Below, piece after piece: positions 6,752-53,132 of a stretch of 64,000 nucleotides of DNA (the first letter of the stretch is position 1; each line of letters begins with the position of its first letter). Made by a program: the position numbers and the translations under genes. This stretch comes from Escherichia phage EPFV3-03/2025. Location of the stretch: sequence record PV435126.1, one strand, 5' to 3'. The notes below the pieces were generated by a model. It saw only the letters and a list, made by a program, of their open reading frames with translations. It searched no databases and had not been told where the DNA came from.

Positions 6752-6761
6752 TCTTTATAAA

Positions 6762-6963: not shown

Positions 6964-7236
6964 GTGTCAAGCTGGATTAACCAAGAAGTCGAATCACGTT
7001 TTAATGCTATTTGGGATCTCATCGAAAAAGAGGACGGAACATCAAGCCCCTACCTTAATAATCTTGAATTCCATTTTGTGGAAGCGATGAACGCAGAACA
7101 TGATCACGAAGGCGGCGCGGATGAGTTCGCTAAAGGGTATGGCTTCACCAATGCCAACGAAATGATCGAGGCGGTTGTACTCCAGGCTGAGGAAGATTAT
7201 CAATTAAAAACACTTGAATTTTGCCGCCGTAAGTAA
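6964..7236 (+). CDS. hypothetical acidic protein (90 aa)
   Basis: GTG start with GAGAGGAAAAC RBS. Confidence 0.5.
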   Translation: MSSWINQEVESRFNAIWDLIEKEDGTSSPYLNNLEFHFVEAMNAEHDHEGGADEFAKGYGFTNANEMIEAVVLQAEEDYQLKTLEFCRRK

Positions 7237-7297
7237 TAAGATAATGACACGGGCCAAAAGGCCCACCAAACCAGAACCCCATAAAGAGGTAAACATC

Positions 7298-7561
7298 ATG
7301 AAACGTCTTGATCAGCTCAAACTAGTTCAGTACATGGCCTACAAAGTTCTTGAAGTCCAAAAAGGTAGCAAAAAAGAGGTTTGCGAGAAAGCATATAAGA
7401 TCTTTACCCGTAAAAAAGATGATTGGATGTTACGCCAGACCAAAAAGGCTGACATCTTGGGGTACCTGGAAGAAGAGATCCGGCTTGAAGAGCAAGAAGA
7501 GATCCGCCGCAGTGAGGCAGATTATCAGGCAGCTTGGGAAAGCTGGATGAGCAACAAATAA
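7298..7561 (+). CDS. hypothetical protein (87 aa)
   Basis: Internal ATG 7298 with AAAGAGGTAAACATCATG RBS. Confidence 0.5.
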   Translation: MKRLDQLKLVQYMAYKVLEVQKGSKKEVCEKAYKIFTRKKDDWMLRQTKKADILGYLEEEIRLEEQEEIRRSEADYQAAWESWMSNK

Positions 7562-7628
7562 TACAACAAGTTACGGTCAGGGGGGGCAATAAAGCCCCTT
7601 GATCACATAAAAATTATGCTATCCCTGG

Positions 7629-7657
7629 TTGACAGGGATCGGCAGTTTTGCTATATT
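7629..7657 (+). promoter_or_regulatory. sigma70-like promoter
   Basis: TTGACA, 17-nt spacer, TATATT. Confidence 0.6.
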
Positions 7658-7706
7658 CTTTTTTGAAGGGAAGTTGTAAGAAAATTAACTAAGAGGTAAA
7701 AACACC

Positions 7707-8126
7707 ATGAACATTAAATCTAATAATCCGGCATATAGCTTTGATAACGCTTTTTGTCACGGTCCGGCGGCGAAAGGATTCGAAATCGATGGTAAACTAA
7801 TTATTGTCAATGTTGACGGGGAAGAGGTTGCAGTATATCCGGTGGCAGACGTTAAAAGCCGTCTACAATGCCGCATGGATGTTACCGCCTATCAGCTTGA
7901 TCCGGTCCGCATAGTTGCCCTGGTCCTGGAAGAAGAAATTAAAGCAATGCACCACAGCAACAAGTTTATTGGTGACGCTCAAGATAATATGAAGGTATGC
8001 CGCCATAAAGTTAATGAAGTGCTTAAAGAATATGGCTTTAAAGATCTGATGATCAAACGTGAGGAAAAATTCCGCTACCGTAACGACCTGGCAAATCGGA
8101 TTTTTGAAATATACGAATCATTATAA
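7707..8126 (+). CDS. hypothetical protein (139 aa)
   Basis: ORF with TAAGAGGTAAAAACACCATG RBS; last gene of + strand block. Confidence 0.6.
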   Translation: MNIKSNNPAYSFDNAFCHGPAAKGFEIDGKLIIVNVDGEEVAVYPVADVKSRLQCRMDVTAYQLDPVRIVALVLEEEIKAMHHSNKFIGDAQDNMKVCRHKVNEVLKEYGFKDLMIKREEKFRYRNDLANRIFEIYESL

Positions 8127-8145
8127 TTTTTTAACTGAATTATCA

Positions 8146-8170
8146 AGGGGCTTAGGCCCCTTTCTTTTTG
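8146..8170 (+). terminator. intrinsic terminator
   Basis: AGGGGC-ttag-GCCCCT stem-loop followed by TTCTTTTTG. Confidence 0.7.
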
Positions 8171-8779
8171 TCTGCTCTTCCCCATACCATAAACGGCCCT
8201 ACCTGACAAGTGGAATAATTGACGAGCCATCAATCCCGCACACTGTACAAATATACATGTAAAATAGCTATTGCATAACCTTTCATTGTGTGGTAGCGGT
8301 GCTATTTTTACCCGTTTTCTCTCCCAAAATTGCACGTAATGCAGCTATTGCACAAAATTTAACCTGATGCACATCTTCAGTATACTGTCAACAATTAAAA
8401 ATCTTTATAAGTCATACACTTACACAAACCAAAAAGCGTGTCCTACGTGAAAAATCGGGTGTAACTATAGCCGACAGATCTCAGAATCCACGTACAATCA
8501 CCATTCTATAGCCTGCAAAGTATTTATTCCAACCACAGAATAACGGAATAGTCAATACTTGTATAAAATAATTATTCGTGTAAACTGCATAACATAAATC
8601 TTCTCATGTGTCAACATTTTTCGTAAACAGTCCGAAATTGTCACGATAGGTTACTATAATCAGAGAAATCTTTAGTCGTCTAATGTTTACTGTACATAAC
8701 TATACTGACTGGAATCATTAGATGACTAAGAGAAAGATAAGAAATAATTAACAATGTAATTGTTTTATCTGCAACAATA

Positions 8780-9040
8780 AGGCAACTATGCAAACGAATG
8801 GCATGGCGCGACGGAGTCGCGACATAATATAAAAGCAGTAACCATCACCCCCGTGATAGTTTGTCTGCAATCTATTAATCAGATCATAGTTGCCTTGTAT
8901 TTAGTTAATCATGACATAACAAGCAGGGCAACTATAGATCTTCTAATAGTTGCCCTGCTTTTATATTATGTCATATATTATTAACTTGTCAATTGTCACC
9001 TTGCTAATTGTTTTCATGCAAACGAATGTCATGGCTTATC
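8780..9040. repeat. cluster of inverted and direct repeats (GCAACTAT/ATAGTTGC units; GCAAACGAATGNCATGGC x2)
   Basis: 16-bp inverted repeat AAGCAGGGCAACTATA...AATAGTTGCCCTGCTT at 8921-8960; further copies at about 8782 and 8886. Confidence 0.7.
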
Positions 9041-9869
9041 ATCTCTGTGTAAACTGTCAATGTGTAAACAGTCTACGCAGGAACAATCTATACGTGAACA
9101 GTGAAACATGAAATAATAACAGTCGTTATTGTGTCGAAAGTGTCGTATTGTGTGACATTGTGTCAGACAAGTTTTTCTCCTCTTTGTCAAGTGCTGCATG
9201 GAAAATTTACAATCTGGTATGGTAGCATTTTTGCGGCCCCGTTTACATGCATGAGTGTATGTATAATCCTTGTTGTGTGGGCGTTTAGACGTCTGGACGG
9301 TCAGAAGTCCGCAGGTTAATATCTAATCTATTGGTCGCTAACTATATCCACCACAAATAATAAGAAATACAATTGTTATATTCGTAAACAGTAACCCATG
9401 TTATCAATCCCTGTATGTATCGCCAGTGGTGCGCATAATGGGTATTATGTTAAATTGCCCGTAATGATAACGATTCTCACAATGATAAGTATTCTCATTC
9501 ATCCACACAAAATAGCTTGCAAATGTTGTGCCACTGTGTGAACGGCCTCGCCTATTAATTTGCCTCACTGCCCCGATATTTGAGAATTGTTATAAGAATG
9601 AGAAGTATTCCCATTCCGTCCGCCTGGCAGCACTCCAGTCGCTACCGGCTCCTGACAGGGTAGCACTCCTGTAGGACAAGCACAAAATCTGGGCATAACT
9701 GGACCTGTTCAGATATTTCTGGCTGACTCTTCAGGTCTGTGTGGGAAAAGCCAACCTCTCCGGCGGGGCAGGGGGGGTCTGCATGGCAGATTTCACCTGG
9801 AGCGAAACCCTTAAGGGTAAGATGGGGTGGTATTACAGGAAAAATTGCAGGTCAATTAAAAAATTTACG

Positions 9870-26503: not shown

Positions 26504-27496
26504 TCAGCAACCACAACTTCCGTAGTGCTTAACCCGTTCTATAACCTCCGCTTGCTTACCTTTATTGTAAGGACGAGAGTTTGGACTGGACAGATACCCG
26601 GATACGCGTCTGATCACACTGATCGTTCCTTCTTCATGGTTTCCACATTCTGGGCATACAAAGCCTTTAGCTGTTGCACTGAACTCACCAGAGAATCCAC
26701 ACTTAAGACATTTATCCACAGGCTGGTTAATACCAAAATACATAATGTGTTTATATCCGAAATCAACAAGAGCTTCCAAAGCATCTAAGTTGTTTTTCAG
26801 ATTTGGTGTCTCTATGTACCCAATGTTGCCACCAGAGGAGATCATAGCAAAACCTTCCTCATACTTCCACTTATCAAAAGGCGAGCTATTGATCCATACT
26901 GGCTGATGGAAACTGTTGGTGAGGTATTCATGCTCGTGCTTCAACACTTCTGGGTATTCACGATCCAGACAGGTTGCAGCTTTATAGCATAAACTCTCAG
27001 AAGGTGTGCCGTACAAGCTAAATGCTAGTCCACTTTCCTTCTTGTATCGCTCACAAGCATCTTTCATGTGCTGAAGGATTCCAAGAGCTAAAGCCTTGTC
27101 ACCCTCTCTGCCCAAAATCTGACAGGTTTCATACACACCAATATACCCAATACTGATGGAAGCGTACCCGTCATAGAAGAGTTTATCGATACTCTCTTCA
27201 GGATCCAGGCGAGCAAGAGCTCCTTCACACCACATGATAGGGTTCTGCCCTGCCTTTGTTCCTTTTAGACGGTTAACCCTTACAAGGTGAGCCTCATATG
27301 CCAAATCCAAATATTCGTCAAGAACTGCAAAGAAATCAACACCTTCCGTTTTAGCTTTTGCCGCAATCATTGGTAGGTTAAGGCTAACAACACCCAAGTT
27401 GAATCTGCCAAGGTATTTCTCCTCGCCTGTTACAGGGTCGCTATATTTCGATAAGAAACTTCTACACATTATGTTCAAGGTGGTTCGCAAGGCCAC
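26504..27496 (-). CDS. nrdD: anaerobic ribonucleoside-triphosphate reductase, C-terminal part
   Basis: Glycyl radical motif RVSGYL near C-terminus, Zn-ribbon CLKCG...CPECG; first codon in track is GTG, so start or splice junction is uncertain. Confidence 0.85.
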   Translation of the reverse strand: MALRTTLNIMCRSFLSKYSDPVTGEEKYLGRFNLGVVSLNLPMIAAKAKTEGVDFFAVLDEYLDLAYEAHLVRVNRLKGTKAGQNPIMWCEGALARLDPEESIDKLFYDGYASISIGYIGVYETCQILGREGDKALALGILQHMKDACERYKKESGLAFSLYGTPSESLCYKAATCLDREYPEVLKHEHEYLTNSFHQPVWINSSPFDKWKYEEGFAMISSGGNIGYIETPNLKNNLDALEALVDFGYKHIMYFGINQPVDKCLKCGFSGEFSATAKGFVCPECGNHEEGTISVIRRVSGYLSSPNSRPYNKGKQAEVIERVKHYGSCGC

Positions 27497-27616
27497 CCCC
27501 GCACCTTTACGTGCTGCTGCATGTCCCCATGCAGATCAGACTATATCTTCACACTTAGTGTGTCTACCATTTCGAGTGTCATCAGCTTACACCCTACACC
27601 GCTACATTCATCACGG

Positions 27617-28168
27617 TTAGTCGTTAGGCATTTCGTAACAGAACTCGTAATCATAGTTATTAGGTGCACCACGTTTCAGGATAGCAGATATTCTTTTTCT
27701 ATCTATTCCTAAAACATCAGCACAACATCTCAGACTCTTAAAGTGAATAACCACACCAGTTAATTTGTGGGTGGCTTTCACCCCGTGACATCTTGTGTAA
27801 AAAGCATAACAGTTGTTGTCGTATCCTTCTTGAGTATTGTCTGGGCAAGCTCCCCACTCAAGGTTGTATACGCTGTTATCTTTCCTGTTGTCACCTTTGT
27901 GCTTAACATATGGTAAATTGTCTGGATTTGGTAAAAACGCTTCAGCAACAAGTCTGTGAACCCTTAGGCAAACAGTCTTTTTGTTCTTGCGTATCCTGAC
28001 AAGACGGTAACCTGTGTTTATCTCTTCCCACGAATGAATAATTCTTTCATTTTCGTATCGGGTGCAATAAACATTGCCCATCTCGTCAATTTCATAACCT
28101 TCAAAATCACGAATTTGTTTTCTCATTTCAGGACTCCTCTTAGTCAGGAGTTCTGTTACGTTTAGCAC
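27617..28168 (-). mobile_element. HNH homing endonuclease gene inserted within nrdD
   Basis: HNH/AP2-like signature GYRLVRI...VHRLVAEAF...HKGDNRKDNSVYNLEWG; lies between the two nrdD halves. Confidence 0.8.
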
Positions 28169-28219
28169 GGGATTGTCCGTTCTGGAGTTTCCCCGTTTAG
28201 ATAGATTTTACATGAGCAG

Positions 28220-29389
28220 TTATAGTTTACCCATGCTTGTTACTTTGCCGTCTGTTGAACCTGTCACTTTACGATTCAGCGGAACAGAAACAAAGTCAGG
28301 ATAAATCCGCTCTGCAGAACATTCTAGAGCCAATCGTTTCAAATCGTAGTTAGGATCCCCAGGGTTCATGTTGACACCCTCCTCTAAGAAGAACAGCACT
28401 TTAGGGAACACAGGTGTGATCCGTTCTTCACCAAGACCCATTTTGTGAACTTTCAAGTAGTTTTTGGTAATCATTCTACCAAAGACCGAGGTATCTAGCC
28501 CTAAACTTAATGTGATGAATGGAGTTTGCCCGTTGACAGAAGTTAACGTATTGATTTGGTAGAGCAAAGTTTGCATACTATCAAACACGTCTTTATCTGT
28601 CATTTGCATTGCAACAGTCTCAGCATCTGGCAACCAATGTTCCTGACAAAATTTAAGGTTCTTCTCGTAGGTTGCTTCAGCATACTGTGCCAGATAATGA
28701 TCAATATGGCTCATGGTCTGACCACCATATTGAGCACTAGCTACTGCACTAGAGATTTGGCTAAGGATTGTTGTTGCAACCCCTATTGACTTCGGCTTAC
28801 TGACATGGGCGTTGCCAATGTTGAATCCGTTTTCCAGCATATCCGGATAATTTACCAAACAACAGTTTGTTAACGGACTGATCAGGTAGTCAAGATCATG
28901 CACATGGATGAAGCCTTTGTTGTGCTCTTCGGAGACACGGTCTGGCAGGATCTGTGTTGATGCAAGATGTTTGCTAAGGATTCCTGCAAGCAGGTCACGA
29001 TGAGTGTGTACATGATTAGTAGGCTTATTTGCGTTTTCTTTTGTAAATTCATCACAAGTACGATCCAAGAAGCCGCTAATATCTGCAAGCAGTTTTCCAC
29101 CTGCCTCTCTGTTATTATCCCTTGTCTGTCTATACTGGATGTATTCTCTGGCTGCACATTTTAAACCCATATCCATAAGAGCATCTTCAACAAGGATATG
29201 GATATTTTTTACAGAGATCGTGCACTGGTCAGTTGGCAGATTGTTGGCAACAACTTCATTAACCGCACAGGCAATCCGGTAAGCTTCTTCTTCAGTATGT
29301 CCAGACTCAAGTAAGGCGGACTCTGCCGCCTTGATCACCTTAATTCCGTTATAAAACTCTTCTCTACCGTCCCGTTTTACAACTTTCAC
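28220..29389 (-). CDS. nrdD: anaerobic ribonucleoside-triphosphate reductase, N-terminal part (ATP-cone)
   Basis: ATP-cone-like N-terminus MKVVKRDGREEFYNGIKV; halves total 719 aa, near full-length NrdD. Confidence 0.85.
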   Translation of the reverse strand: MKVVKRDGREEFYNGIKVIKAAESALLESGHTEEEAYRIACAVNEVVANNLPTDQCTISVKNIHILVEDALMDMGLKCAAREYIQYRQTRDNNREAGGKLLADISGFLDRTCDEFTKENANKPTNHVHTHRDLLAGILSKHLASTQILPDRVSEEHNKGFIHVHDLDYLISPLTNCCLVNYPDMLENGFNIGNAHVSKPKSIGVATTILSQISSAVASAQYGGQTMSHIDHYLAQYAEATYEKNLKFCQEHWLPDAETVAMQMTDKDVFDSMQTLLYQINTLTSVNGQTPFITLSLGLDTSVFGRMITKNYLKVHKMGLGEERITPVFPKVLFFLEEGVNMNPGDPNYDLKRLALECSAERIYPDFVSVPLNRKVTGSTDGKVTSMGKL

Positions 29390-43618: not shown

Positions 43619-44902
43619 CTATTCCAGAACCTCCCAAGTGTCTGGATTAACATTTCGGACGCAGATACCGACAGGGAATTGGTAGTTGTTGTCTTCTGTC
43701 CTTGCTTGATATTTAAAGGTGACAAACTTGCCGATCATTTCCTGCATCCTGCCATAGCTACGCTCCTCGTGCGTGCCTTTCATCTTCATTTTAACAACGA
43801 TGCCTTCCTTGTCAACGCAGATAAGAACACCCTCATCATTCTTATCTTTCTCAACGTCAATAACTTTCACCTCTGCGTCGTTGAACTTTTTCCATTTCAA
43901 TGCTTCAGATGTTCGCTGACCGTATTCGTATTTACCACAGAAGTTACGCATGATAGTACCTTCATACCCTTCGGACATGAATACACCAACAGATTCTTCG
44001 CAATGATCAACTGTGTACGCAATCTCTGCGTCAACAACCCTGATATGGTCAAGCATCAGAGTGGTAATGGTATCTTCTGCATCCATAAGATCCTTGCAGC
44101 GTCCAGACTCTGTTTCTGGATCCCACCACACCTTGTCACTAGGGATATCAAAAATGTGATACTCTAAGTCATAGCTACAGTACCCTCCGTAACGCAAATC
44201 ATCACGAACAGGCTCAACATCAACAGGAATATCTACCTTATTGAAGTTTTTGTATGTTGATAAGCCTGCCTTAATTGCGGCATGACGGCGTTTTTTATCT
44301 GCCTCGTAGTCTTTATCGATCTCGGCCTGAATCTCTTCCTGTGTGCGCCACCGTTTAGCAAGAGACACTATTTTCTGCAGAGGCAGACCATGAATATAGA
44401 TCTCTCCGTCGAGCTGTTTAATCCCGGTGGTGAAGTGGAAAGAACGAAGTTGCTCCAGAAGCTTTCCTTGAATAGGGTAGGACTTATTACCACGGGAAAT
44501 AAATTTAGGCTCCCCATTTTGGAAAACAACAAGTAGACGAAGGCCATCTAACTTACGCAAGATCCAGCAAGGTAATTTAAGTGCCTTTCCACGCTTCAGG
44601 TAGTCATGCACCAGCATGGGTAAAAGGTCAACGCCCTGCTCGCAATCTTCCATATTTTCAACATACCCCAGACGGACTTGTTTTTCCCACTTACTGATCG
44701 CTTCCAGCTCAGCCTGTTGCTCAGCTGTAGTTTCATTGGCACGACCCACGTTCTTAGGTGTGCAGATCGTCTCTTTGTATTGCAGTTTACCATCAAGCTT
44801 GCCAAACTCTACGATAACCTTATCACCATCCGTGAATACTTTCCACTGTTGGTAGCTGTCATCTTTGTTCAGTGCGTACAGTGTTGTTTTGATCTGATGC
44901 AT
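43619..44902 (-). CDS. ATP-dependent DNA ligase
   Basis: Motif I RKLDGLR (KxDGxR), motif IV-like EGYEGTIMR, motif V-like LKWKKF, about 90 aa OB-like tail. Confidence 0.6.
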   Translation of the reverse strand: MHQIKTTLYALNKDDSYQQWKVFTDGDKVIVEFGKLDGKLQYKETICTPKNVGRANETTAEQQAELEAISKWEKQVRLGYVENMEDCEQGVDLLPMLVHDYLKRGKALKLPCWILRKLDGLRLLVVFQNGEPKFISRGNKSYPIQGKLLEQLRSFHFTTGIKQLDGEIYIHGLPLQKIVSLAKRWRTQEEIQAEIDKDYEADKKRRHAAIKAGLSTYKNFNKVDIPVDVEPVRDDLRYGGYCSYDLEYHIFDIPSDKVWWDPETESGRCKDLMDAEDTITTLMLDHIRVVDAEIAYTVDHCEESVGVFMSEGYEGTIMRNFCGKYEYGQRTSEALKWKKFNDAEVKVIDVEKDKNDEGVLICVDKEGIVVKMKMKGTHEERSYGRMQEMIGKFVTFKYQARTEDNNYQFPVGICVRNVNPDTWEVLE

Positions 44903-45466: not shown

Positions 45467-45530
45467 AACTTTCTACCTCACTTGCATACTTTCCGAAACA
45501 AGTAAAGCCGGGATCGCCCCGGCTATGTTA

Positions 45531-46244
45531 TTAAATATATTCTGTTACATCCTTGAAGCTCGAAGGCTTCATAATCTTACCTTTACTGTCGAGGAATATG
45601 ATAACTTTATTTCCGTTGTAGAATTCTTCTTTAGCAACAAAACCTTCATAGCGACCATCAAAGCGTCGCTCAAGATCTTTAATCTCCAACTCGATGAGTT
45701 GTTCAGCAGGCATATCTGCACTGGCACCGTGTGAATACCGCAGATGGTTGACGCGTGCAAACTTGCTGTCATTAGATTTTAGAACCTTCCGCATCATCCC
45801 GCACACATCACCGCGAAGCTGGAACAGCAAAGCTGTTGACAACTCTGCTAAGCGGTAAGCAGACGCTCTTTGCTTAGAGGTATTTTTCGCAGCGATCAGT
45901 GTATCATAAAATTCACCGATCTTAAACTTAAGACCTCGCGGATTATCAAACAGGTTTGACCACTTTTCATGGTTATCGTTAACAAGATAAGCGGCATAAC
46001 TTGTGACAACGTGAAGATCGCAGGCCTCTTTTAGGAGATGATCCCCACCATCACCTTTCTCCAACTCTTCCAAAACTTCATTGAACTCTTCCTCAATGAA
46101 ACTCAGCTGAAGTTCGAATGGTGTGTATGATTTTTTCACTTTAGCTGCTACACGGTTCCAATTTTCCACCCAGTTGGCAGACCAAAGGTAGTTTTCAGGC
46201 TGAGACAGTTTTTCCAGGTTGTCGATCAGTTTAGTATTCAGCAT
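45531..46244 (-). CDS. MazG-like nucleotide pyrophosphohydrolase (putative)
   Basis: Acidic helical motif EEEFNEVLEELEKGD...EACDL. Confidence 0.4.
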   Translation of the reverse strand: MLNTKLIDNLEKLSQPENYLWSANWVENWNRVAAKVKKSYTPFELQLSFIEEEFNEVLEELEKGDGGDHLLKEACDLHVVTSYAAYLVNDNHEKWSNLFDNPRGLKFKIGEFYDTLIAAKNTSKQRASAYRLAELSTALLFQLRGDVCGMMRKVLKSNDSKFARVNHLRYSHGASADMPAEQLIELEIKDLERRFDGRYEGFVAKEEFYNGNKVIIFLDSKGKIMKPSSFKDVTEYI

Positions 46245-46258
46245 TAAAAGGCCTCCGC

Positions 46259-47020
46259 TTACAGTTCCATAAAGTTTTCTACGATGTCAATAAATGTTTT
46301 ATCAGAGAAAGCGTCAACCGCCCCGTTAAACCAAACTGGGATGCCGCGATCCTCATACTGGTAAATGTCACTACGTGAAATGCCATTCTCCCCTAAATGC
46401 TGTGAGTCGTATTTGTTAACGATCAGTAGTTTAGTCCCCTTATTACAGGCAGGGAATAGCTCCCAGTTAAAATTGATAACTGTGTTGGAGCACCCTACAA
46501 GGATAACCATATCATTGCTCGTCAGAGAAGTCAACAGGTCATACATGTCTACATACTTTGGAGCTACTTCTCCGAAGAACACTACATTAGGCTTGACCCA
46601 AGTATACTCGCTTGCATCTACCTCAGAGTATCCAATGTCTTTAATTACGTCATTCCCTTCATCATCCTCATAAACTATTTCTGGCAAATACCCGTGGACA
46701 TGCAAAATATCTTCATGTTTTACACCAGCACGCTCCAGCAAATCATCTACATTGGTGGTCAGGTTGATCACACGACCAGACCAGCGGGAATACCACTCAG
46801 CGATCCGGAGATGTGCAAGGTTAGGCTCAACACTCCCCAAAGCTACACGCCGTGCATTGTAAAAGTCATGTACCTTATAGTAGTTCTTGGCAAAGGTGTG
46901 GATGTTACACACCTCATCGATGCTGAAATTCTCCCACATTGCAGTGCCACCAGATCGGAAAGTTGGGATACCAGATTCAGCGCTCAAACCAGCACCGGAG
47001 ATAATGATCAGTCGTCGCAT
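46259..47020 (-). CDS. Sir2-family (sirtuin-like) NAD-binding protein, apparently lacking Zn-ribbon
   Basis: GAGLSAESGIPTFR, TNVDDL, HVHG and VVFFGE motifs; no CxxC pairs. Confidence 0.7.
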   Translation of the reverse strand: MRRLIIISGAGLSAESGIPTFRSGGTAMWENFSIDEVCNIHTFAKNYYKVHDFYNARRVALGSVEPNLAHLRIAEWYSRWSGRVINLTTNVDDLLERAGVKHEDILHVHGYLPEIVYEDDEGNDVIKDIGYSEVDASEYTWVKPNVVFFGEVAPKYVDMYDLLTSLTSNDMVILVGCSNTVINFNWELFPACNKGTKLLIVNKYDSQHLGENGISRSDIYQYEDRGIPVWFNGAVDAFSDKTFIDIVENFMEL

Positions 47021-47028
47021 AAGTGTCC

Positions 47029-47379
47029 TCAGTAGATGTTTTGTTTAATCTCTATTCCAAACTTTTTAAACGAGTCAGCAGCAAGCATGAATTTACGAGC
47101 CGCTGATGGGTTAGAAGTATGCACGAAAATCTTCACGTTGTCAACTACAGGAGGCTTACCAAATACAAATTTTTCTTCCAGCATAGATAGGCAATCGTAC
47201 CCTTCAAATACCTCTCCAAGGTCGTTGTCCATGTGCCACTCAGAAACGCGCCTGTAGAGCTTTCCCTTATCGTTAATAAAATCAATAAACTCAGAGGAAT
47301 TCTTTAGCCAAAGAGCATCTGGGAGCCCATAATTTGACGGATCTCTCAAGTCATCCAGCCACACAATCAACTTCTTCAT
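47029..47379 (-). CDS. hypothetical protein (116 aa)
   Basis: Coupled between RNA ligase and Sir2-like genes. Confidence 0.5.
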   Translation of the reverse strand: MKKLIVWLDDLRDPSNYGLPDALWLKNSSEFIDFINDKGKLYRRVSEWHMDNDLGEVFEGYDCLSMLEEKFVFGKPPVVDNVKIFVHTSNPSAARKFMLAADSFKKFGIEIKQNIY

Positions 47380-48311
47380 TGCATATAGTCCTCGTTGTGG
47401 AAATAGCAGTCAAGTATCTCACGGCGTTCCTGCTCCAGGAGGCAATTCCACACATCTTCTGTGTAGTTTCTACGAATGAAGTTTACCATGCCGTAAAACT
47501 CTTCGTCAACACGTTTAAAGATATCATCATCCCAAATCTTCCAAGCTCTACCCCTCATTACGACCTTCCGTGCCAGATAGTAGGGAGACTTGATCTTTAG
47601 TTGCAGGTCATAAGGGTAGTAAGACTTACGGATCATATACCCTTCGCCCCTTGTTTCTGCAGCCAACTCTTTTGCATAGCTGAACGGAATTTCACGCACA
47701 GTGTGAGGACGTTTTGCACCAAGGTATTTGGCAATACCGTCTAAAGCTGCTTCTGGTAGCATTATTCCAGAATCATTGTATCGGCAACCGATCAAATAGG
47801 CACCATGATCTTCCTGAACAATATGCGGGTCTGAAGGGTGACAAATTTCAAACATGAATGTCATGTTTTCATGGCCCATAACCTTCTTGATAAGATCTAA
47901 ATTACCACATTGCTCCTGGATTGTTTCCTTTGCGAGGTTACAATATGGAGAATCAAGAGACCCTGTTGTTGAGAACAACAGTTCACCTTTGTGAGATGAT
48001 ACCACACCAAGGAATCCGTTCTTTTTCTCTACCGCCGTCACAAGTTTATTGTCAGGCAGGTTGGTGGAATTTTCTCCCAAGTTAAATACTTTTGTGAAGG
48101 GCCATGCCACAACATTTCCTTCATTACCGACAACAATTCCTCGGCACTCTAGTAAACGCGGAGACAAATGCCATAGATTGTTGTAAAATACTTTTCTGGC
48201 ATATTTATAGATCTTTAACCCAAGATCTGGATAATACCGACTGGTTACAAGACCTTTATCCACTAAATCATCTGCATTAAAATACTTCATCATACATTCC
48301 TCGTTTGTCAT
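47376..48311 (-). CDS. ATP-dependent RNA ligase (nucleotidyltransferase ligase without OB domain)
   Basis: Motif I EKKNG, motif IV EGYMIRK, motif V LKIKS; divergent from PNK kinase/phosphatase genes. Confidence 0.55.
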   Translation of the reverse strand: MTNEECMMKYFNADDLVDKGLVTSRYYPDLGLKIYKYARKVFYNNLWHLSPRLLECRGIVVGNEGNVVAWPFTKVFNLGENSTNLPDNKLVTAVEKKNGFLGVVSSHKGELLFSTTGSLDSPYCNLAKETIQEQCGNLDLIKKVMGHENMTFMFEICHPSDPHIVQEDHGAYLIGCRYNDSGIMLPEAALDGIAKYLGAKRPHTVREIPFSYAKELAAETRGEGYMIRKSYYPYDLQLKIKSPYYLARKVVMRGRAWKIWDDDIFKRVDEEFYGMVNFIRRNYTEDVWNCLLEQERREILDCYFHNEDYMQ

Positions 48312-48411
48312 TTTGTCACTCTATCTTGCCACACAAATAAACTAGTGTCAACACTTGAAATGAACAAAAGAGTTATGTATACTACCATTAAAATTAAAAC
48401 GGAGGATTACT

Positions 48412-48822
48412 ATGTCTAAAATGCTGTATATCGTGCGTGGTCTACCAGGTTCTGGCAAATCAACACTGGCAAATGCACTATCTTTAGAGGGGCTGTACCC
48501 ACATTTTGAGAACGACATGTTCTGGTACGACGACGATGGAAATTACAACTGGGATGCAAGTAAAGTAACACTTGCAGCAAAATGGTGCAAAGATAACGTA
48601 GAAGATATGATGCGTATGGGATACGACCGTGTCGTGGTAAGTAATACGTTTACAAAAGAAAAACATGTGCAAGAATATGTTGACATGGCAATCAGTCATG
48701 GGTATAGTTATACTGTGATCGTGGTTGAAAACCGCCACGGTAATAAGAGCATTCATGATGTTCCAGATAGGGTTGTGGACCGTATGGAGCGTGAGCTTAA
48801 AAACTGCATTAAACTAAAATGA
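48412..48822 (+). CDS. polynucleotide 5'-kinase-like P-loop kinase
   Basis: Walker A VRGLPGSGKSTLA resembles T4 Pnk kinase domain; no fused phosphatase. Confidence 0.6.
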   Translation: MSKMLYIVRGLPGSGKSTLANALSLEGLYPHFENDMFWYDDDGNYNWDASKVTLAAKWCKDNVEDMMRMGYDRVVVSNTFTKEKHVQEYVDMAISHGYSYTVIVVENRHGNKSIHDVPDRVVDRMERELKNCIKLK

Positions 48823-48829
48823 GGGATGT

Positions 48830-49384
48830 ATGAAATATTTTGTAACAAGCGATACACACTTTCTCCACCAGCGAGTCATGGAGTTTGATTCATGTCAAAA
48901 ACACAGATCTCAGTATGATCACAATCTTGACAGTATGAACGAAGGAATCATTGCAGAGTGGAACTCTGTTGTATCACCAGAAGACACTGTGTTTCACTTG
49001 GGCGATATTGCATGCACTAAGGATAAGAATATCAACAACTTATTTCCAGATATTCTAAATATGTTGAACGGACATATTATTCTTGTTCGTGGTAACCATG
49101 ACACAAGGACGACTGTCAGAATTATGAAAGAGTTCGGTCATGAGGTTGTAGATTATTACGAGCTTCGCCACAACAAGAATTTGATCTGTATGAGCCATTA
49201 CCAGTTTGCAAAGTGGAACAGAAAGCCTCACGGATCAGTCCAACTGTTCGGTCATGCTCACGGAACCACACAGCAGTTGTTTGGCAGGCAGTTTGATGTC
49301 GGTTGGGATGTGTGGGGGAGACTCTTACCATTAGAAGAGGCATACCGTATTGCAATGAGTCTTGCTATTGACAGCGGGGAGTAA
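48830..49384 (+). CDS. calcineurin-like metallophosphoesterase
   Basis: SDTHF (DxH), GDIACTKD, GNHD, GHAHG motifs. Confidence 0.7.
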   Translation: MKYFVTSDTHFLHQRVMEFDSCQKHRSQYDHNLDSMNEGIIAEWNSVVSPEDTVFHLGDIACTKDKNINNLFPDILNMLNGHIILVRGNHDTRTTVRIMKEFGHEVVDYYELRHNKNLICMSHYQFAKWNRKPHGSVQLFGHAHGTTQQLFGRQFDVGWDVWGRLLPLEEAYRIAMSLAIDSGE

Positions 49385-49431
49385 TCCCTGCTATTTTAAA
49401 GAAAATTGCCACACAAGGAGAATCAGGAGAT

Positions 49432-49782
49432 ATGAAAGAGGAGGATAAGCTGCCATACCTTAAAGTCCCATTTGGAATACTGTCTATGTCAAAAGTTTTG
49501 AATGATACAACTGGAGAGGTTGTTGTTCTTGACTTGTATGACAAGATCGTATACTGCTACCTGCACAACTGGTATAAGCTTGGAGGAAATTCACGCTTCA
49601 CACCCAGCACAAGGAAAATTGCAGCAGATGTTGGGATAAAGAAAACAAAAGCAGCAGCGTGCGTTAAAACTTTAGAATGTGCAGGCGTGGTTGAAATATC
49701 CACACAAGGGAGAGGTAAAAGATGCACATTTTCCAAAGTTTTGCCACCAGAAGAGGTTATTCGAATGTCAACAACTGGTTAG
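49432..49782 (+). CDS. putative winged-helix DNA-binding protein
   Basis: 116-aa ORF; wHTH-like segment STRKIAADVGIKKTKAAACVKTLECAGVVE; directly upstream of iterons. Confidence 0.45.
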   Translation: MKEEDKLPYLKVPFGILSMSKVLNDTTGEVVVLDLYDKIVYCYLHNWYKLGGNSRFTPSTRKIAADVGIKKTKAAACVKTLECAGVVEISTQGRGKRCTFSKVLPPEEVIRMSTTG

Positions 49783-49857
49783 ACCAGTAAAAACTTAAAT
49801 ATCTGTACTATAAGGATTCGTATGTTTTATGTCCATCCAAGAGCAGAGGGTAGTAAC

Positions 49858-49945
49858 TGTCCGTAATACGGACACTACTGCCCGTCACGCGGACACATCT
49901 GCCCGTAATACGGACACTAACTGTCCGCAATACGGACACATAAAG
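49858..49945. repeat. four tandem iterons of about 21-22 bp, each with palindrome CCGTAATACGG + ACAC
   Basis: TCCGTAATACGGACACTACTG / CCCGTCACGCGGACACATCTG / CCCGTAATACGGACACTAACTG / TCCGCAATACGGACACATAAAG. Confidence 0.8.
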
Positions 49946-50443
49946 AATATAACTAAAATAACTAAATAATAAAAAATAAAAGATCTAGTACTTATGGTAC
50001 TAAAGTACATATACTTAACTTATGTAGAATATACTAGATCCTAAGTACCATGTTTTAAATTTATTACTTACTATTGGTAGTGTCGGCCCTTCATTGGCAC
50101 TCGCCTACGAGGGGCGAGATGCCGGGCCTCCATAGTGCACACAATAACAGGAGTGCATACATGCAGGACTGTTAACATGTGTGGGAGCGAAGCGATAGCG
50201 CAGGCCAAAGGCCGAGCACTAATGTGGACCACCGACGAAAGCTTGCCAGCGCCGTAAGGAGTCGGTTGAGAGCCTCCCGCGAGAGTTTAGTTAAAGTTTA
50301 TGTGTGGAAACGGACAGGAAGGCCCCTAAATCGCCACACAGCTGCGTAAACTATACCAAGTAAGGCAATCGCACCAGTTTGATAGAAAAGCTCGTTACAA
50401 AGCGATACAGTGAGTTTTTCTATAACTTGAAGAGGAGGCAGTT

Positions 50444-52319: not shown

Positions 52320-52394
52320 GCCCTGTTAGCTTAGTGGATAAAGCAGCGGCCTTCTAAGCCGTTGACACTGGTTCGAGTCCAGTACGGGGTGCCA
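52320..52394 (+). tRNA. tRNA-Arg (anticodon TCT)
   Basis: Manual cloverleaf: 7-bp acceptor GCCCTGT/ACGGGGT, 4-bp D-stem, anticodon loop CTTCTAA, T-loop TTCGAGT, CCA encoded. Confidence 0.75.
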
Positions 52395-52398
52395 AATT

Positions 52399-52485
52399 GG
52401 GGAGTTATCCCGTAGAGGTAGCGGTGTAGACTGTAAATCTATTGTCATTGCGACTCGGGTGGTTCGACTCCACCACTCCCCACCA
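52399..52485 (+). tRNA. tRNA-Tyr (anticodon GTA), long variable arm
   Basis: Acceptor GGGGAGT/ACTCCCC, anticodon loop CTGTAAA, T-arm GGTGG-TTCGACT-CCACC, CCA encoded. Confidence 0.7.
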
Positions 52486-52599
52486 AATTTATATTTTTAA
52501 ATGCATAAATCATACAGATAATGACATTGATATTTATCGTCGTTTATACTAGTCACTAACTGCTCGAAAATCAGTGTCATTATCAGTGTAATTTATAAA

Positions 52600-52690
52600 G
52601 GAGGGTAGGGAGCAATGGTGCTCAAGCGGTCTTGAAAACCGTCCCGTTGAGGATGACTCGATGATGGTTCGATTCCATTACTCTCCGCCA
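52600..52690 (+). tRNA. tRNA-Ser (anticodon TGA), long variable arm
   Basis: Acceptor GGAGGGT/ACTCTCC, anticodon stem GCGGT/ACCGT with loop CTTGAAA, T-loop TTCGATT, CCA encoded. Confidence 0.7.
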
Positions 52691-52788
52691 CATTGTTGAC
52701 CTTGTAATTAAGCGAAAGCCGGAAGCAGAACCGGATTATCAAATGTTACAGTCGTCATCGCCGACTAGCCACATGGTCAACATATTGC

Positions 52789-52887
52789 GCTAGGTAAGCC
52801 CTTTGGCAAGGGCGAGGATTTTTAATCCTGAAAATAGACGAGGTAGTCGTTGAATACATAGGTGGTTCGATTCCATCACCTAGCACC
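52789..52887 (+). tRNA. atypical tRNA-like gene (possible anticodon TTT) with about 30-nt insertion before T-arm
   Basis: Perfect 7-bp acceptor GCTAGGT/ACCTAGC, D-arm GCCC-TTTGGCAA-GGGC, T-arm GGTGG-TTCGATT-CCATC, but 4-bp anticodon stem and over-long variable region; CCA not fully encoded. Confidence 0.45.
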
Positions 52888-52892
52888 TTTTT

Positions 52893-52968
52893 GCTGATGT
52901 AGCACAATTGGCAGTGCAATTGATTTGTAATCAATAGGTTGCAGGTTCGAGTCCTGCCATCAGCACCA
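52893..52968 (+). tRNA. tRNA-Thr (anticodon TGT)
   Basis: Acceptor GCTGATG/CATCAGC, D-stem GCAC/GTGC, anticodon stem ATTGA/TCAAT loop TTTGTAA, T-loop TTCGAGT, CCA. Confidence 0.8.
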
Positions 52969-52969
52969 T

Positions 52970-53044
52970 GGCCCTGTAGCTGGAAGGTTCAAGCAAGCGA
53001 CTCATAATCGCCAGACGGTGGTTCAATTCCACCCAGGGCCACCA
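52970..53044 (+). tRNA. tRNA-Met (anticodon CAT; Ile-lysidine type not excluded)
   Basis: Acceptor GGCCCTG/CAGGGCC, anticodon loop CTCATAA, T-arm GGTGG-TTCAATT-CCACC, CCA. Confidence 0.7.
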
Positions 53045-53055
53045 AATAATAAATA

Positions 53056-53132
53056 CTCCGCGTAGCTCAGCTTGGTAGAGCGCCTGATTTGGGATCAGGA
53101 GGTCGAGTGTTCGAATCACTCCGTGGAGACCA
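53056..53132 (+). tRNA. tRNA-Pro (anticodon TGG)
   Basis: C1-G72 acceptor CTCCGCG/CGTGGAG, D-arm GCTC-AGCTTGGTA-GAGC, anticodon stem CCTGA/TCAGG loop TTTGGGA, T-loop TTCGAAT, CCA. Confidence 0.8.

What the first reader, a model, noticed from the sequence alone, without database searches (positions are those of the whole stretch)
46259..49384. Divergent RNA-repair gene set (RNA ligase vs PNK-like kinase + metallophosphatase) beside a Zn-less Sir2-like gene
The - strand operon ends with Sir2-like (46259-47020), an unknown 116-aa protein (47029-47379) and a ligase with motifs I/IV/V but no OB domain (47376-48311). It is transcribed divergently from a P-loop kinase with a T4 Pnk-like Walker A (48412-48822) and a calcineurin-like phosphatase (48830-49384). 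Kinase, phosphatase and ligase together supply the tRNA-healing chemistry of T4 Pnkp/Rnl1, but as three separate polypeptides and with a non-HAD phosphatase. The phage's own tRNA cluster lies 3 kb downstream, consistent with defence against host anticodon nucleases. The Sir2-like protein has the GAGLSAESGIPTFR NAD pocket but no Zn-ribbon, like bacterial defence-associated Sir2 NADases; its role on a phage is open.
Basis: partly seen in the sequence, partly recalled or inferred. Interest (0 to 1): 0.75.

Follow-up and report, generated by a model that had tools for sequence, protein, structure and literature searches.

The report
Known rV5-type phage RNA-repair gene cluster
This is a real six-gene cluster in an rV5-like E. 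coli phage that most likely mends cut RNA such as tRNA, but the same cluster, sirtuin included, was already predicted from comparative genomics in 2022 and has not been tested in the laboratory.

Summary
The window is an rV5-like phage (Vequintavirus, 98% identical to FV3). All five ORFs exist as described, and profile and structure searches confirm them. They are a T4 Rnl1-family RNA ligase, a polynucleotide 5'-kinase (best solved relatives are the C. thermocellum Pnkp and T4 Pnk kinases), a calcineurin-type metallophosphoesterase and a Zn-less sirtuin.

- The "unknown" 116-aa protein is a cREC domain (PF20274), a receiver-fold protein predicted to open cyclic phosphates.
- The leftward unit runs ligase > cREC > sirtuin > MazG-like pyrophosphatase (45531-46244) and ends at a terminator-like hairpin.
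- The sirtuin is not of the defence-NADase type. It is a CobB/SIRT5-like class III sirtuin with its catalytic His/Asn/Asp and the anion-binding YxxR motif intact.

Iyer et al. 2022 (PMC9503650) described exactly this neighbourhood, with phage V5 as a prototype. They predicted that the sirtuin removes RNA 2'-phosphates as Tpt1/KptA does.

Transposon sequencing of the relative Bas54 classes five of the six genes as non-essential and cREC as intermediate. None was depleted in the host comparison read.

The core RNA-repair reading is well supported by homology. The sirtuin's role remains a hypothesis. Verdict: already known, moderate interest.

The parts
47376..48311 (-). T4 Rnl1-family ATP-dependent RNA ligase (311 aa; the true start is probably Met7 or Met8, near 48290-48293). 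First gene of the leftward operon.
   Evidence: Pfam RNA_lig_T4_1 4e-15. PHROG 562 1e-65. The family profile hits only T4 Rnl1 in the PDB (2c5u, 2.5e-9). Invariant K96 (KxNGF, aligned to T4 K99), E155, E223-G224 and K239/K241. No OB domain, as in Rnl1. Relatives annotate a 305-aa product.
47029..47379 (-). cREC: a stand-alone receiver-fold protein predicted to act as a cyclic-phosphate phosphoesterase. Its start overlaps the ligase stop by 4 nt.
46259..47020 (-). Zn-less, class III (CobB/SIRT5-like) sirtuin.
   Evidence: Pfam SIR2 8e-27. PDB phmmer: SIRT5 1e-21 and CobB. AF2 pLDDT 89; Foldseek top hit is E. coli CobB, TM 0.75-0.85. Invariant GAG, F21-R22, Y54/R57 (aligned to SIRT5 Y102/R105), N90, D92 and H109. 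No Zn-binding Cys in any of 28 sequences. No PADLOC defence hit.
45531..46244 (-). MazG-like all-alpha nucleotide pyrophosphohydrolase; last gene of the leftward operon.
   Evidence: PHROG 671 5e-22. Conserved EExxE...CD motif. Only weak Pfam and PDB matches to HisE/PRA-PH. Co-located with the cluster in 13 related loci.
45506..45524 (-). Terminator-like G+C-rich hairpin with a T-tract, immediately after the MazG-like stop codon.
   Evidence: Consensus scan. The same site is annotated as an ARNold terminator in phage Gotham MT682716.
48312..48411 (.). 100-bp divergent intergenic region. It holds a rightward sigma-70-like promoter (48355-48383, TTGAAA-17-TATACT) and a GGAGGA Shine-Dalgarno before the kinase start.
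   Evidence: PhagePromoter annotates a promoter at the same place in Gotham. The scan found no leftward sigma-70-like site here.
48412..48822 (+). Stand-alone polynucleotide 5'-kinase (136 aa), without a fused phosphatase domain.
   Evidence: AAA_33 5e-11. The family profile's best PDB hits are the C. thermocellum Pnkp kinase domain (4gp6, 1e-10), T4 Pnk over its full length (1ly1, 2.4e-10), C. gingivalis Pnkp1 and PSTK. Invariant P-loop, D35 (aligned to T4 Asp35) and lid R108.
48830..49384 (+). Calcineurin-type metallophosphoesterase (184 aa), 7 nt after the kinase; the candidate 3'-end healing enzyme.
   Evidence: Metallophos 6e-6. PHROG 547 3e-52. Best PDB relative is Aquifex aq_1665 (1xm7; profile 7e-18). 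Invariant D8, H10, D59, N89-H90, H123 and H142/H144.
43619..44902 (-). ATP-dependent DNA ligase with an OB domain. It is a conserved neighbour of the cluster and is not the RNA ligase.
   Evidence: Pfam DNA_ligase_A_M plus DNA_ligase_OB_2. Adjacent to the cluster in all Mydo-type and phi92-like loci examined.
52320..53132 (+). Phage tRNA cluster: Arg-TCT, Tyr-GTA, Ser-TGA, an aberrant 99-nt tRNA-like gene, Thr-TGT, Met-CAT and Pro-TGG. It is context and a set of possible substrates.
   Evidence: ARAGORN; Rfam tRNA matches.

Best explanation
The locus is the rV5-type phage RNA end-healing and sealing module. It consists of two divergent units, ligase > cREC > sirtuin > MazG-like (leftward) and kinase > metallophosphoesterase (rightward).

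Inferred mechanism. Host RNases cut tRNA or other RNA and leave 5'-OH and 2',3'-cyclic-phosphate ends.
- The kinase phosphorylates the 5'-OH.
- The metallophosphoesterase, the cREC protein or both open the cyclic phosphate and remove it.
- The Rnl1-type ligase seals the 3'-OH and 5'-P ends with ATP.
- As proposed by Iyer et al. 2022, the Zn-less sirtuin uses NAD+ to remove a residual 2'-phosphate, as Tpt1/KptA does. The MazG-like enzyme, cREC or both then dispose of the ADP-ribose cyclic-phosphate by-product.
- My added inference: the invariant YxxR motif, which binds the acyl carboxylate in SIRT5, could bind that phosphate.

What is shown: family membership, intact catalytic motifs, folds, operon layout and conserved linkage. 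What is inferred: every substrate and every reaction step.

Sub-claim confidences: core kinase/phosphoesterase/ligase RNA repair about 0.7; the sirtuin as 2'-phosphate remover about 0.3.
For: - Enzyme identities and intact active sites.
- Folds: sirtuin close to CobB; cREC close to receiver domains.
- Operon signals: a 4-nt overlap and 7- to 14-nt gaps between genes, a terminator after the MazG-like gene and a promoter before the kinase.
- Linkage survives rearrangement. Mydo-type phages carry MPE > ligase > cREC > kinase > sirtuin > DNA ligase ... MazG on one strand, at 30-60% protein identity to the window.
- The same sirtuin clade has other neighbours of RNA-end-processing families. A HAD_SAK_2 phosphatase lies directly downstream in 28 of 64 loci, T5 among them. 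In a jumbo-phage contig an AAA_33 kinase lies 2 kb upstream and tRNA genes flank the sirtuin.
- The published prediction names phage V5 as a prototype (PMC9503650). cREC-ligase linkage is reported in PMC7824862.
- In Bas54 five of the six genes are classed non-essential and cREC intermediate, which fits an accessory, conditional function.
Against: - No biochemical or genetic test of any of these proteins was found.
- Bas54 insertion mutants in the cluster were not depleted relative to E. coli K-12 in the clinical-strain resampling rows I read (CFE303 or CFE311; I could not tell which sheet). No phenotype therefore links the cluster to a defence.
- In phi92-like phages the cREC/MPE/(ligase/kinase)/DNA-ligase/MazG cluster lies about 30 kb from the sirtuin, so the sirtuin is separable from it.
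- No cREC or RNA ligase lies within 8 kb of the sirtuin in T5-like loci, and the cREC scan returned no T5-like contig.
- Two phi92-like loci keep cREC and MPE next to the DNA ligase but have no RNA ligase or kinase within about 3.8 kb of cREC.
- Nine distant cREC loci showed no recurrent RNA-ligase neighbour among the families listed.
- T4 Rnl1 does not need a 2'-phosphate, and an MPE could heal the 3' end alone, so a 2'-phosphate-removing branch is not obviously required (established knowledge of T4 Pnkp/Rnl1 and C. thermocellum Pnkp).
- The sirtuin keeps every feature of a protein deacylase.
Confidence: 0.5

Rival explanations
1. Only the kinase, phosphoesterase and ligase repair RNA. The sirtuin is an ordinary class III protein lysine deacylase (of the desuccinylase or demalonylase type), or a protein ADP-ribosyltransferase, acting on host or phage proteins. 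Its place in the operon reflects co-expression, not shared chemistry.
For: Best sequence and fold matches are CobB and SIRT5. The catalytic H109, N90 and D92 and the acyl-carboxylate-binding Y54/R57 pair are invariant. The clade is widespread in phages where no RNA ligase lies within 8 kb of the sirtuin (T5-like), or where the sirtuin is 30 kb from the cluster (phi92-like). A NAMPT gene beside or near the sirtuin in several lineages fits any NAD-consuming, nicotinamide-releasing sirtuin. CobB is reported to deacetylate the receiver-domain protein CheY (reference 97 of PMC9503650), so a sirtuin-cREC protein pair is conceivable.
Against: All four Zn ligands are lost across the clade, and the Gln of the QNID motif is replaced (TTNVDD), which sets it apart from characterised deacylases. 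The clade recurs next to genes of RNA-end-processing families in at least three different gene contexts. No target protein is known.
Confidence: 0.3
2. The island is mainly a DNA end-healing and sealing set. The kinase and phosphoesterase act like PNKP on DNA breaks that carry 5'-OH and 3'-phosphate ends, and the neighbouring ATP-dependent DNA ligase seals them.
For: The ATP-dependent DNA ligase is a constant neighbour. In Mydo-type phages its start codon overlaps the sirtuin stop. Two phi92-like loci keep cREC, MPE, DNA ligase and MazG with no RNA ligase or kinase nearby. T4 Pnkp acts on DNA as well as RNA (established knowledge). There is a weak NCBIfam match of the MPE to the ligase-associated PdeM phosphoesterase (3e-4, far below cut-off).
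Against: A dedicated Rnl1-family ligase is present with all catalytic motifs conserved. The kinase's nearest solved relatives are RNA-repair or tRNA kinases. In the window the DNA ligase lies beyond the terminator-like hairpin and two small ORFs, so it is probably a different transcription unit.
Confidence: 0.1
3. cREC, the sirtuin and the MazG-like enzyme form a counter-defence module against NAD+/ADP-ribose-derived immune signals, such as cyclic ADP-ribose isomers or cyclic nucleotides. They would not act in RNA repair.
For: The definition of cREC allows cADPR or cyclic-nucleotide processing (PMC7824862). PMC9503650 lists cREC among domains that process ADP-ribose derivatives. MazG-type and Nudix-type enzymes cleave nucleotide pyrophosphates (established knowledge).
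Against: These three genes are co-transcribed and probably translationally coupled with the RNA ligase. Sirtuins consume NAD+ rather than degrade its signalling products (established knowledge). None of the three genes matches a PADLOC defence model (that library holds defence, not counter-defence, proteins, so this bears only weakly). No phenotype is known.
Confidence: 0.07
4. The ligase serves mainly as a tail-fibre attachment catalyst like T4 gp63, which is how many GenBank records annotate it.
For: Annotation transferred from T4 RnlA/gp63; PHROG 562 carries the same name.
Against: The Bas54 orthologue tolerated insertions at 56 of 60 TA sites and is classed non-essential. In the same study the N-terminal domain of T4 rnlA did not tolerate insertions. 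The protein is 63 aa shorter than T4 Rnl1.
Confidence: 0.03

Closest known systems
Sirtuin-centred phage RNA-repair neighbourhood, type 2, 'prototyped by Escherichia phage V5 and Proteus phage Mydo' (Iyer, Burroughs, Anantharaman, Aravind 2022, Viruses 14:1977, PMC9503650, section 3.7.3)
   Same: The gene set is identical: sirtuin, T4-like tRNA ligase, cREC, nucleotide kinase, MazG-superfamily pyrophosphatase and the 'occasional' calcineurin-like phosphoesterase. The window comes from the same phage group as one of the prototypes (94.5-94.6% DNA identity over the locus to three rV5-named records and 98% to FV3).
   Different: Nothing substantive. Details added here that I did not find in that paper by term search: the clade has lost all Zn ligands, is nearest to the class III CobB/SIRT5 sirtuins and keeps the YxxR motif; the operon boundaries; the kinase-MPE pair is inverted relative to Mydo-type phages; and in phi92-like phages the sirtuin is unlinked from the cluster.
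Phage T4 Pnkp (PseT) plus Rnl1 tRNA repair pathway, which counters the PrrC anticodon nuclease
   Same: Homologous kinase (full-length profile match to T4 Pnk, 2.4e-10; Asp35 and the P-loop are conserved) and homologous ligase (T4 Rnl1 is the only PDB hit; motifs I, III, IV and V are conserved). The overall logic is heal, then seal.
   Different: The kinase is a stand-alone 136-aa protein without the HAD phosphatase domain. The phosphatase candidate is a separate binuclear metallophosphoesterase. The ligase is 311 aa against 374 aa, with a shorter C-terminal region. cREC, sirtuin and MazG-like genes are added. Activity and the nuclease countered are unknown.
Bacterial Pnkp of the Pnkp-Hen1 RNA repair system (Clostridium thermocellum Pnkp)
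   Same: It combines a 5'-kinase, a calcineurin-type metallophosphoesterase for 3'-end healing and an ATP-dependent ligase. Its kinase domain (4gp6, 4jst) is the top solved match for the phage kinase profile. That these PDB entries are the C. thermocellum Pnkp kinase domain is my own knowledge.
   Different: There the three activities are domains of one polypeptide; here they are three genes. The sealing enzyme here is Rnl1-type. No Hen1 methyltransferase is present. The phage MPE is closest to Aquifex aq_1665 and not to a characterised Pnkp phosphatase.
Fungal/plant Trl1 plus Tpt1 (KptA) pathway
   Same: The proposed logic is the same: the cyclic phosphate is opened to a 2'-phosphate, and the 2'-phosphate is removed by NAD+-dependent transfer to ADP-ribose.
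   Different: No 2H phosphoesterase or Tpt1/KptA homologue is present in this cluster. cREC and a sirtuin are proposed non-homologous analogues, and this is untested.
Class III sirtuins E. coli CobB and human SIRT5
   Same: Rossmann fold (TM 0.75-0.85 to CobB), the NAD pocket GAGxSxxSGIPxFR, the catalytic His, the Asn and Asp of the xNxD motif, and the YxxR pair that binds acyl carboxylates.
   Different: All four Zn-ribbon cysteines are absent, although a small beta-sheet is still predicted there. QNID is replaced by TNVD. The gene sits in a phage RNA-repair operon. The substrate is unknown.

Membership tests
T4 Rnl1-family RNA ligase (PF09511 / TIGR02308) | Significant match to the family model | tested here: met
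   Pfam 56.8 bits against a cut-off of 28.3. The family profile hits only T4 Rnl1 2c5u/9do4, at 2.5e-9. The NCBIfam equivalog score of 39 is far below its cut-off of 242, so this is a divergent member and not an equivalog.
T4 Rnl1-family RNA ligase (PF09511 / TIGR02308) | Nucleotidyltransferase motifs: motif I Lys (KxxG), motif III, motif IV (EG) and motif V (KxK) | tested here: met
   K96, E155, E223-G224 and K239/K241 are invariant in 10 sequences. They align to T4 K99, EG(227-228) and K240/K242 (T4 numbering is from my own knowledge).
T4 Rnl1-family RNA ligase (PF09511 / TIGR02308) | C-terminal tRNA-specificity domain of T4 Rnl1 | tested here: inconclusive
   Only about 65 residues follow motif V, against about 120 in T4. 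The alignment to 2c5u ends near T4 residue 271.
T4 Rnl1-family RNA ligase (PF09511 / TIGR02308) | Seals 3'-OH/5'-P RNA (tRNA) breaks | not testable with these tools
   Needs a biochemical assay.
Polynucleotide 5'-kinase (T4 Pnk / bacterial Pnkp kinase clade) | P-loop GxxGxGK(S/T) plus the general-base Asp (T4 Asp35) and a lid Arg | tested here: met
   G10-T18, D35 and R108 are invariant. D35 aligns to T4 D35, and R108 lies in the T4 R122-R126 lid segment. T4 Arg38 has no conserved counterpart.
Polynucleotide 5'-kinase (T4 Pnk / bacterial Pnkp kinase clade) | Nearest relatives are polynucleotide or tRNA kinases and not small-molecule kinases | tested here: met
   The top 11 profile hits in the PDB start with the C. 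thermocellum Pnkp kinase, T4 Pnk, C. gingivalis Pnkp1 and PSTK (1e-10 to 6e-8). Gluconate, shikimate and adenylate kinases score 1e-4 or weaker.
Polynucleotide 5'-kinase (T4 Pnk / bacterial Pnkp kinase clade) | Fused 3'-phosphatase domain (bifunctional Pnkp, as some GenBank records annotate it) | tested here: not met
   The protein is 136 aa and consists of the kinase domain only. The annotation '3'-phosphatase, 5'-polynucleotide kinase' overstates it.
Calcineurin-like metallophosphoesterase (PF00149) | Metal-binding motifs DxH, GD, GNH(D/E), H and GHxH | tested here: met
   D8, H10, D59, N89-H90-D91, H123 and H142/H144 are invariant in 10 sequences. Pfam 27.2 bits against a cut-off of 21.5.
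Calcineurin-like metallophosphoesterase (PF00149) | 2',3'-cyclic phosphodiesterase or 2'/3'-phosphomonoesterase activity on RNA ends (as in the C. thermocellum Pnkp phosphatase) | not testable with these tools
   The closest solved relative, aq_1665 (1xm7), has no assigned function.
Sirtuin, class III (CobB/SIRT5) | Rossmann NAD-binding fold with GAGxS...FR, the catalytic His, and the Asn and Asp of the xNxD motif | tested here: met
   residues 9-22, N90, D92 and H109 are invariant; TM 0.75-0.85 to CobB.
Sirtuin, class III (CobB/SIRT5) | Cys4 Zn-ribbon in the small domain | tested here: not met
   No cysteines between H109 and the VVFFGE motif in any of 28 clade members.
Sirtuin, class III (CobB/SIRT5) | YxxR pair that binds a negatively charged acyl group | tested here: met
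   Y54 and R57 are invariant and align to SIRT5 Y102 and R105 (the role of those residues is established knowledge).
Defence-associated Sir2 NADases (SIR2_2, ThsA, DSR, Sir2-HerA) | Match to SIR2_2 or to defence-system Sir2 models | tested here: not met
   Only PF02146 was hit in Pfam. PADLOC gave no meaningful match; the best was E 0.008 to an unrelated model with no passing stretch.
cREC (PF20274) | Match to the family model, receiver (CheY-like) fold and conserved acidic active-site residues | tested here: met
cREC (PF20274) | Hydrolysis of 2',3'-cyclic phosphate or 1''-2'' cyclic ADP-ribose phosphate | not testable with these tools
   The activity is only predicted in the literature and is stated there to be 'experimentally uncharacterized' (PMC9503650).
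MazG-superfamily all-alpha NTP pyrophosphohydrolase | EExxE ... D metal-binding motif and a family-model match | tested here: inconclusive
   The motif is conserved (E52, E53, E56, D72, D76) and PHROG 671 gives 5e-22. Pfam PRA-PH is below cut-off (0.084) and the best PDB hit, HisE, is 0.035.
Iyer et al. 2022 type-2 sirtuin-centred RNA-repair neighbourhood | Sirtuin linked to a T4-like ligase, cREC, a nucleotide kinase and MazG, with or without a calcineurin-like phosphoesterase | tested here: met
   All six genes lie within 45531-49384. Definition read.
Tpt1/KptA RNA 2'-phosphotransferase | Homology to the KptA ART-fold domain | tested here: not met
   None of the ten cluster and flanking ORFs scanned matches it. 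Any resemblance is of proposed function only. The rest of the genome was not examined.

The most novel reading that the evidence does not exclude
The Zn-less, CobB-derived phage sirtuin is not a protein deacylase. It would be an RNA-end enzyme and a non-homologous analogue of Tpt1/KptA: it would use NAD+ to remove a 2'-phosphate (or to ADP-ribosylate a terminal phosphate) at broken RNA ends. The invariant YxxR anion pocket would be re-used to bind phosphate in place of a succinyl carboxylate, and cREC would act as the cyclic phosphodiesterase that feeds it. This would be the first sirtuin acting on nucleic-acid termini. The idea of a Tpt1-like role is already published as a prediction; only the YxxR and Zn-loss rationale is added here.
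Probability: 0.25. Interest if true: 0.75.

Novelty: already known. Interest (0 to 1): 0.38.

Why it matters
If the predicted chemistry holds, this cluster would be a third way for phages to heal broken RNA, alongside T4 Pnkp/Rnl1 and RtcB-type repair. It would give sirtuins and receiver-fold domains new enzymatic roles. That bears on how large virulent coliphages escape tRNA-cleaving defences, and so on host range in phage therapy.

As a scan finding it is a rediscovery. The gene set, its prototype phage and the proposed role of the sirtuin were published in 2022, and GenBank records already name most of the genes.

What remains open, and easy to test, is the biochemistry. Bas54 carries orthologous, dispensable genes and has an existing transposon library.

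Tried and rejected
- Single-sequence PDB searches with the ligase and the kinase found nothing meaningful. Profiles built from related loci were needed.
- I looked for experimental work on phage sirtuins or on this cluster. There was none. The one 'phage Sir2' hit, the NARP3 paper PMC13464706, concerns the host Sir2-HerA system and is irrelevant.
- I tried to reproduce a general cREC-RNA ligase linkage outside this phage group. Nine distant cREC loci from viral and bacterial contigs showed no recurrent neighbour family among the 25 families listed. One Clostridia metagenome-assembled genome has an MPE homologue 630 bp downstream of cREC. The sample is small and only the top families are displayed, so this neither supports nor refutes the published claim. 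Four Christiangramia hits looked spurious and were dropped.
- tRNA proximity is not general for the sirtuin clade. Only 3 of 21 representative loci had tRNAs within 8 kb.
- I looked for NAMPT, HAD_SAK and Tpt1-like genes. tblastn found no NAMPT or HAD_SAK homologue in the 64-kb window. No Tpt1-like domain occurs in the cluster ORFs scanned; the rest of the window was not scanned for it.
- An Rfam scan around the locus found only tRNAs. A YrlA (Y RNA-like) match of 25 bits against a gathering score of 69 overlaps tRNA genes and is treated as chance.
- The tail-fibre-attachment reading of the ligase is rejected on the Bas54 transposon data.
I therefore could not check whether Y54 and R57 line the pocket next to H109.

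Full report
**Source and observation.** The window is an rV5-like myovirus (Vequintavirus). The stretch 46000-49800 is 98.7% identical to phage SYGMH1 and 98.3% to FV3, and 119 phage records match it at 90% identity or more. GenBank records already annotate the genes as RNA ligase, Sir2-like protein, polynucleotide kinase or ATPase, and phosphoesterase. One record also names a 'cyclic-phosphate processing receiver domain-containing protein'.

**Identity of the ligase, kinase and phosphoesterase.**
- *Ligase (47376-48311, minus strand).* It matches Pfam RNA_lig_T4_1 (4e-15). A profile of ten orthologues hits only T4 Rnl1 in the PDB (2.5e-9). The motif I lysine K96, E155, E223-G224 and K239/K241 are invariant.
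- *Kinase (48412-48822, plus strand).* This is a 136-aa stand-alone P-loop kinase. Its family profile matches best the C. thermocellum Pnkp kinase domain, T4 Pnk over its full length, C. gingivalis Pnkp1 and the tRNA kinase PSTK (1e-10 to 6e-8). Small-molecule kinases score far lower. The P-loop, D35 (aligned to the T4 general base Asp35) and the lid arginine R108 are invariant.
- *Phosphoesterase (48830-49384, plus strand).* It has all the metallophosphoesterase metal-binding motifs invariant. Its closest solved relative is the uncharacterised Aquifex aq_1665 (7e-18 with a profile).

**The sirtuin.**
- It lacks every Zn-ribbon cysteine, and so do 27 diverse homologues.
- It is not of the defence type. 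It matches SIR2 and not SIR2_2 and has no PADLOC defence match.
- Its best sequence matches are the class III sirtuins SIRT5, CobB and Sir2-Af1 (1e-21). The AF2 model (pLDDT 89) matches E. coli CobB best (TM 0.75-0.85).
- The NAD pocket, N90, D92 and the catalytic H109 are invariant.
- Y54 and R57 are also invariant. They align to SIRT5 Y102 and R105, the pair that binds succinyl and malonyl carboxylates. That role is established knowledge.
- The Gln of the QNID motif is replaced (TTNVDD).

**Operon layout.**
- In transcription order the leftward unit is ligase > cREC > sirtuin > MazG-like. The ligase and cREC genes overlap by 4 nt, and the next two junctions have gaps of 8 and 14 nt.
- A G+C-rich hairpin with a T-tract follows the MazG-like stop codon at 45506-45524. 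Phage Gotham annotates the same site as a terminator.
- The kinase and the phosphoesterase, 7 nt apart, are transcribed the other way from a 100-bp gap. That gap has a sigma-70-like promoter at 48355-48383 and a GGAGGA ribosome-binding site.

**Comparative evidence.** The sirtuin clade is large: 849 homologues in the protein search and 64 viral loci in the contig scan. I use 'Mydo-type', 'T5-like' and 'phi92-like' as my own labels for contig groups.
- *rV5- and Mydo-type myoviruses (about 135-153 kb).* Thirteen or fourteen of the 64 loci also carry the kinase, MPE and MazG genes within 8 kb. Eleven carry the RNA ligase and eight carry cREC. In the Mydo-type loci the order is MPE > ligase > cREC > kinase > sirtuin > DNA ligase ... 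MazG, all on one strand. Linkage therefore survives both rearrangement and divergence to 30-60% protein identity.
- *T5-like loci (28 of 64, one of them on a 121,750-bp contig, which is the length of T5).* The gene directly downstream of the sirtuin is a HAD_SAK_2 'Swiss-army-knife RNA repair' phosphatase.
- *One jumbo-phage contig.* tRNA genes flank the sirtuin, and an AAA_33 kinase lies 2 kb upstream.
- *phi92-like phages.* These point the other way. The cREC > MPE > (ligase > kinase) > DNA ligase > MazG cluster lies about 30 kb from the sirtuin. Two such loci have no RNA ligase or kinase within about 3.8 kb of cREC.
- *Nine distant cREC loci.* They showed no recurrent neighbour family.

**Literature.**
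- Iyer, Burroughs, Anantharaman and Aravind (2022; PMC9503650) describe exactly this neighbourhood. [quoted passage not shown]
- They propose that the sirtuin removes 2'-phosphates in the manner of KptA/Tpt1. They state that cREC is experimentally uncharacterised.
- cREC was defined in their 2021 jumbo-phage paper (PMC7824862).
- I found no experimental study of these proteins.
- A term search of the 2022 paper found no mention of the Zn loss or of SIRT5, and its CobB mentions are general background.

**Functional data from a relative.** The only functional data found are transposon-insertion maps of the Vequintavirinae phage Bas54 (bioRxiv 10.1101/2025.11.20.689424).
- Its orthologues of the MazG-like gene, sirtuin, RNA ligase, kinase and phosphoesterase are classed non-essential on E. 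coli K-12. The cREC orthologue is classed intermediate.
- The libraries were also passaged on two clinical strains, CFE303 and CFE311. In the resampling rows I read, which compare K-12 with one of these strains, none of the six genes is depleted. I could not tell which of the two comparison sheets those rows come from.
- This fits an accessory function. It argues against an essential tail-fibre role for the ligase. It also gives no positive link to any defence.

**Interpretation.** Homology, intact active sites and conserved linkage support the core reading well: kinase plus metallophosphoesterase heal the ends and an Rnl1-type ligase seals them. I put this at about 0.7. It resembles both T4 Pnkp/Rnl1 and the bacterial Pnkp domain set, but the activities are split into separate genes.

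The extension is the published hypothesis that cREC opens cyclic phosphates and that the sirtuin removes the resulting 2'-phosphate with NAD+. Operon membership, the recurrent association of the sirtuin clade with RNA-end enzymes, and possibly the retained anion-binding YxxR pair make it attractive. It is still unproven, and I put it at about 0.3.

The main rival is that the sirtuin is an ordinary class III protein deacylase, also about 0.3. Lesser rivals are a DNA end-repair island built around the neighbouring DNA ligase, and a module that counters NAD-derived immune signals.

**Verdict.** The system is already known as a computational prediction. Interest is moderate because the biochemistry is still open and easy to test.

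Noticed in passing
window 52789-52887 (+): A 99-nt tRNA-like gene in the tRNA cluster, which ARAGORN cannot assign (it reads a 4-base 'atcc' anticodon). Rfam tRNA gives 35.5 bits. The covariance-model alignment places UUU in the anticodon position of a UUUUUAA loop and shows a 26-nt insertion in the variable region. The minimum-free-energy fold instead closes the anticodon arm into a 6-bp stem with a 3-nt loop. The FV3 RefSeq record does not annotate it, but ARAGORN makes the same call in a 93%-identical contig (L003). It could be an aberrant Lys(UUU)-like tRNA or a decoy; this was not resolved.
   Followed up: partly
window 26504-29389 (-): The anaerobic ribonucleotide reductase NrdD is split into two ORFs (28220-29389 and 26504-27496) exactly at Pfam NRDD profile position 263. 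A 183-aa ORF (27617-28168) lies between them, with weak HNH_3 and I-HmuI NUMOD-like matches, so it is probably a homing endonuclease insertion. Rfam reported no group I intron at gathering threshold.
   Followed up: partly
L075, L077, L079 (phi92-like viral contigs, about 4950-9600 in each locus): These contigs carry a cREC > MPE > (RNA ligase > kinase) > DNA ligase > MazG cluster, while their sirtuin lies about 30 kb away on the same contig. L075 and L079 have no RNA ligase or kinase within about 3.8 kb of cREC but keep cREC and MPE next to the DNA ligase.
   Followed up: partly
L062:6057-7493; about 6 kb upstream of the sirtuin in Mydo-type loci L024, L025, L029, L032, L046, L051, L055 and L060; also L063 (3 kb upstream) and L064 (6 kb downstream): A nicotinamide phosphoribosyltransferase (NAMPT) gene lies next to or near the phage sirtuin in several lineages, which would recycle the nicotinamide that a sirtuin releases. 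tblastn finds no NAMPT in the 64-kb window.
   Followed up: partly
L065:5578-8842 (518-kb jumbo-phage contig): A 40%-identical sirtuin is flanked immediately by tRNA-Arg(CCT) and tRNA-Ser(ACT) genes. An AAA_33 kinase lies 2 kb upstream and an amidoligase-like gene lies between them.
   Followed up: partly
L088:4995-6640 (Clostridia metagenome-assembled genome): A distant bacterial cREC gene has a homologue of the phage metallophosphoesterase 630 bp downstream (E 1e-34 to the phage MPE profile). This is an independent cREC-MPE pairing.
   Followed up: no
window 48290-48311: The longest ORF of the RNA ligase starts at MTNEECMM..., but orthologues start at the equivalent of Met7 or Met8, and Bas54 and Gotham annotate a 305-aa product. 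The real start is probably 18-21 nt downstream of 48311.
   Followed up: partly
window 49783-50443: About 660 bp after the HTH / 'replication initiation protein' gene (49432-49782) has no ORF of 60 aa or more (the two ORFs listed there are 53 and 56 aa). One relative annotates only a 46-aa CDS here. The stretch was not examined.
   Followed up: no
window 52997-53109 (+): A sub-threshold Rfam match to YrlA (Y RNA-like): 25 bits against a gathering score of 69, E 0.09. It overlaps the tRNA-Met and tRNA-Pro genes and is most likely a chance match to tRNA-like modules.
   Followed up: no
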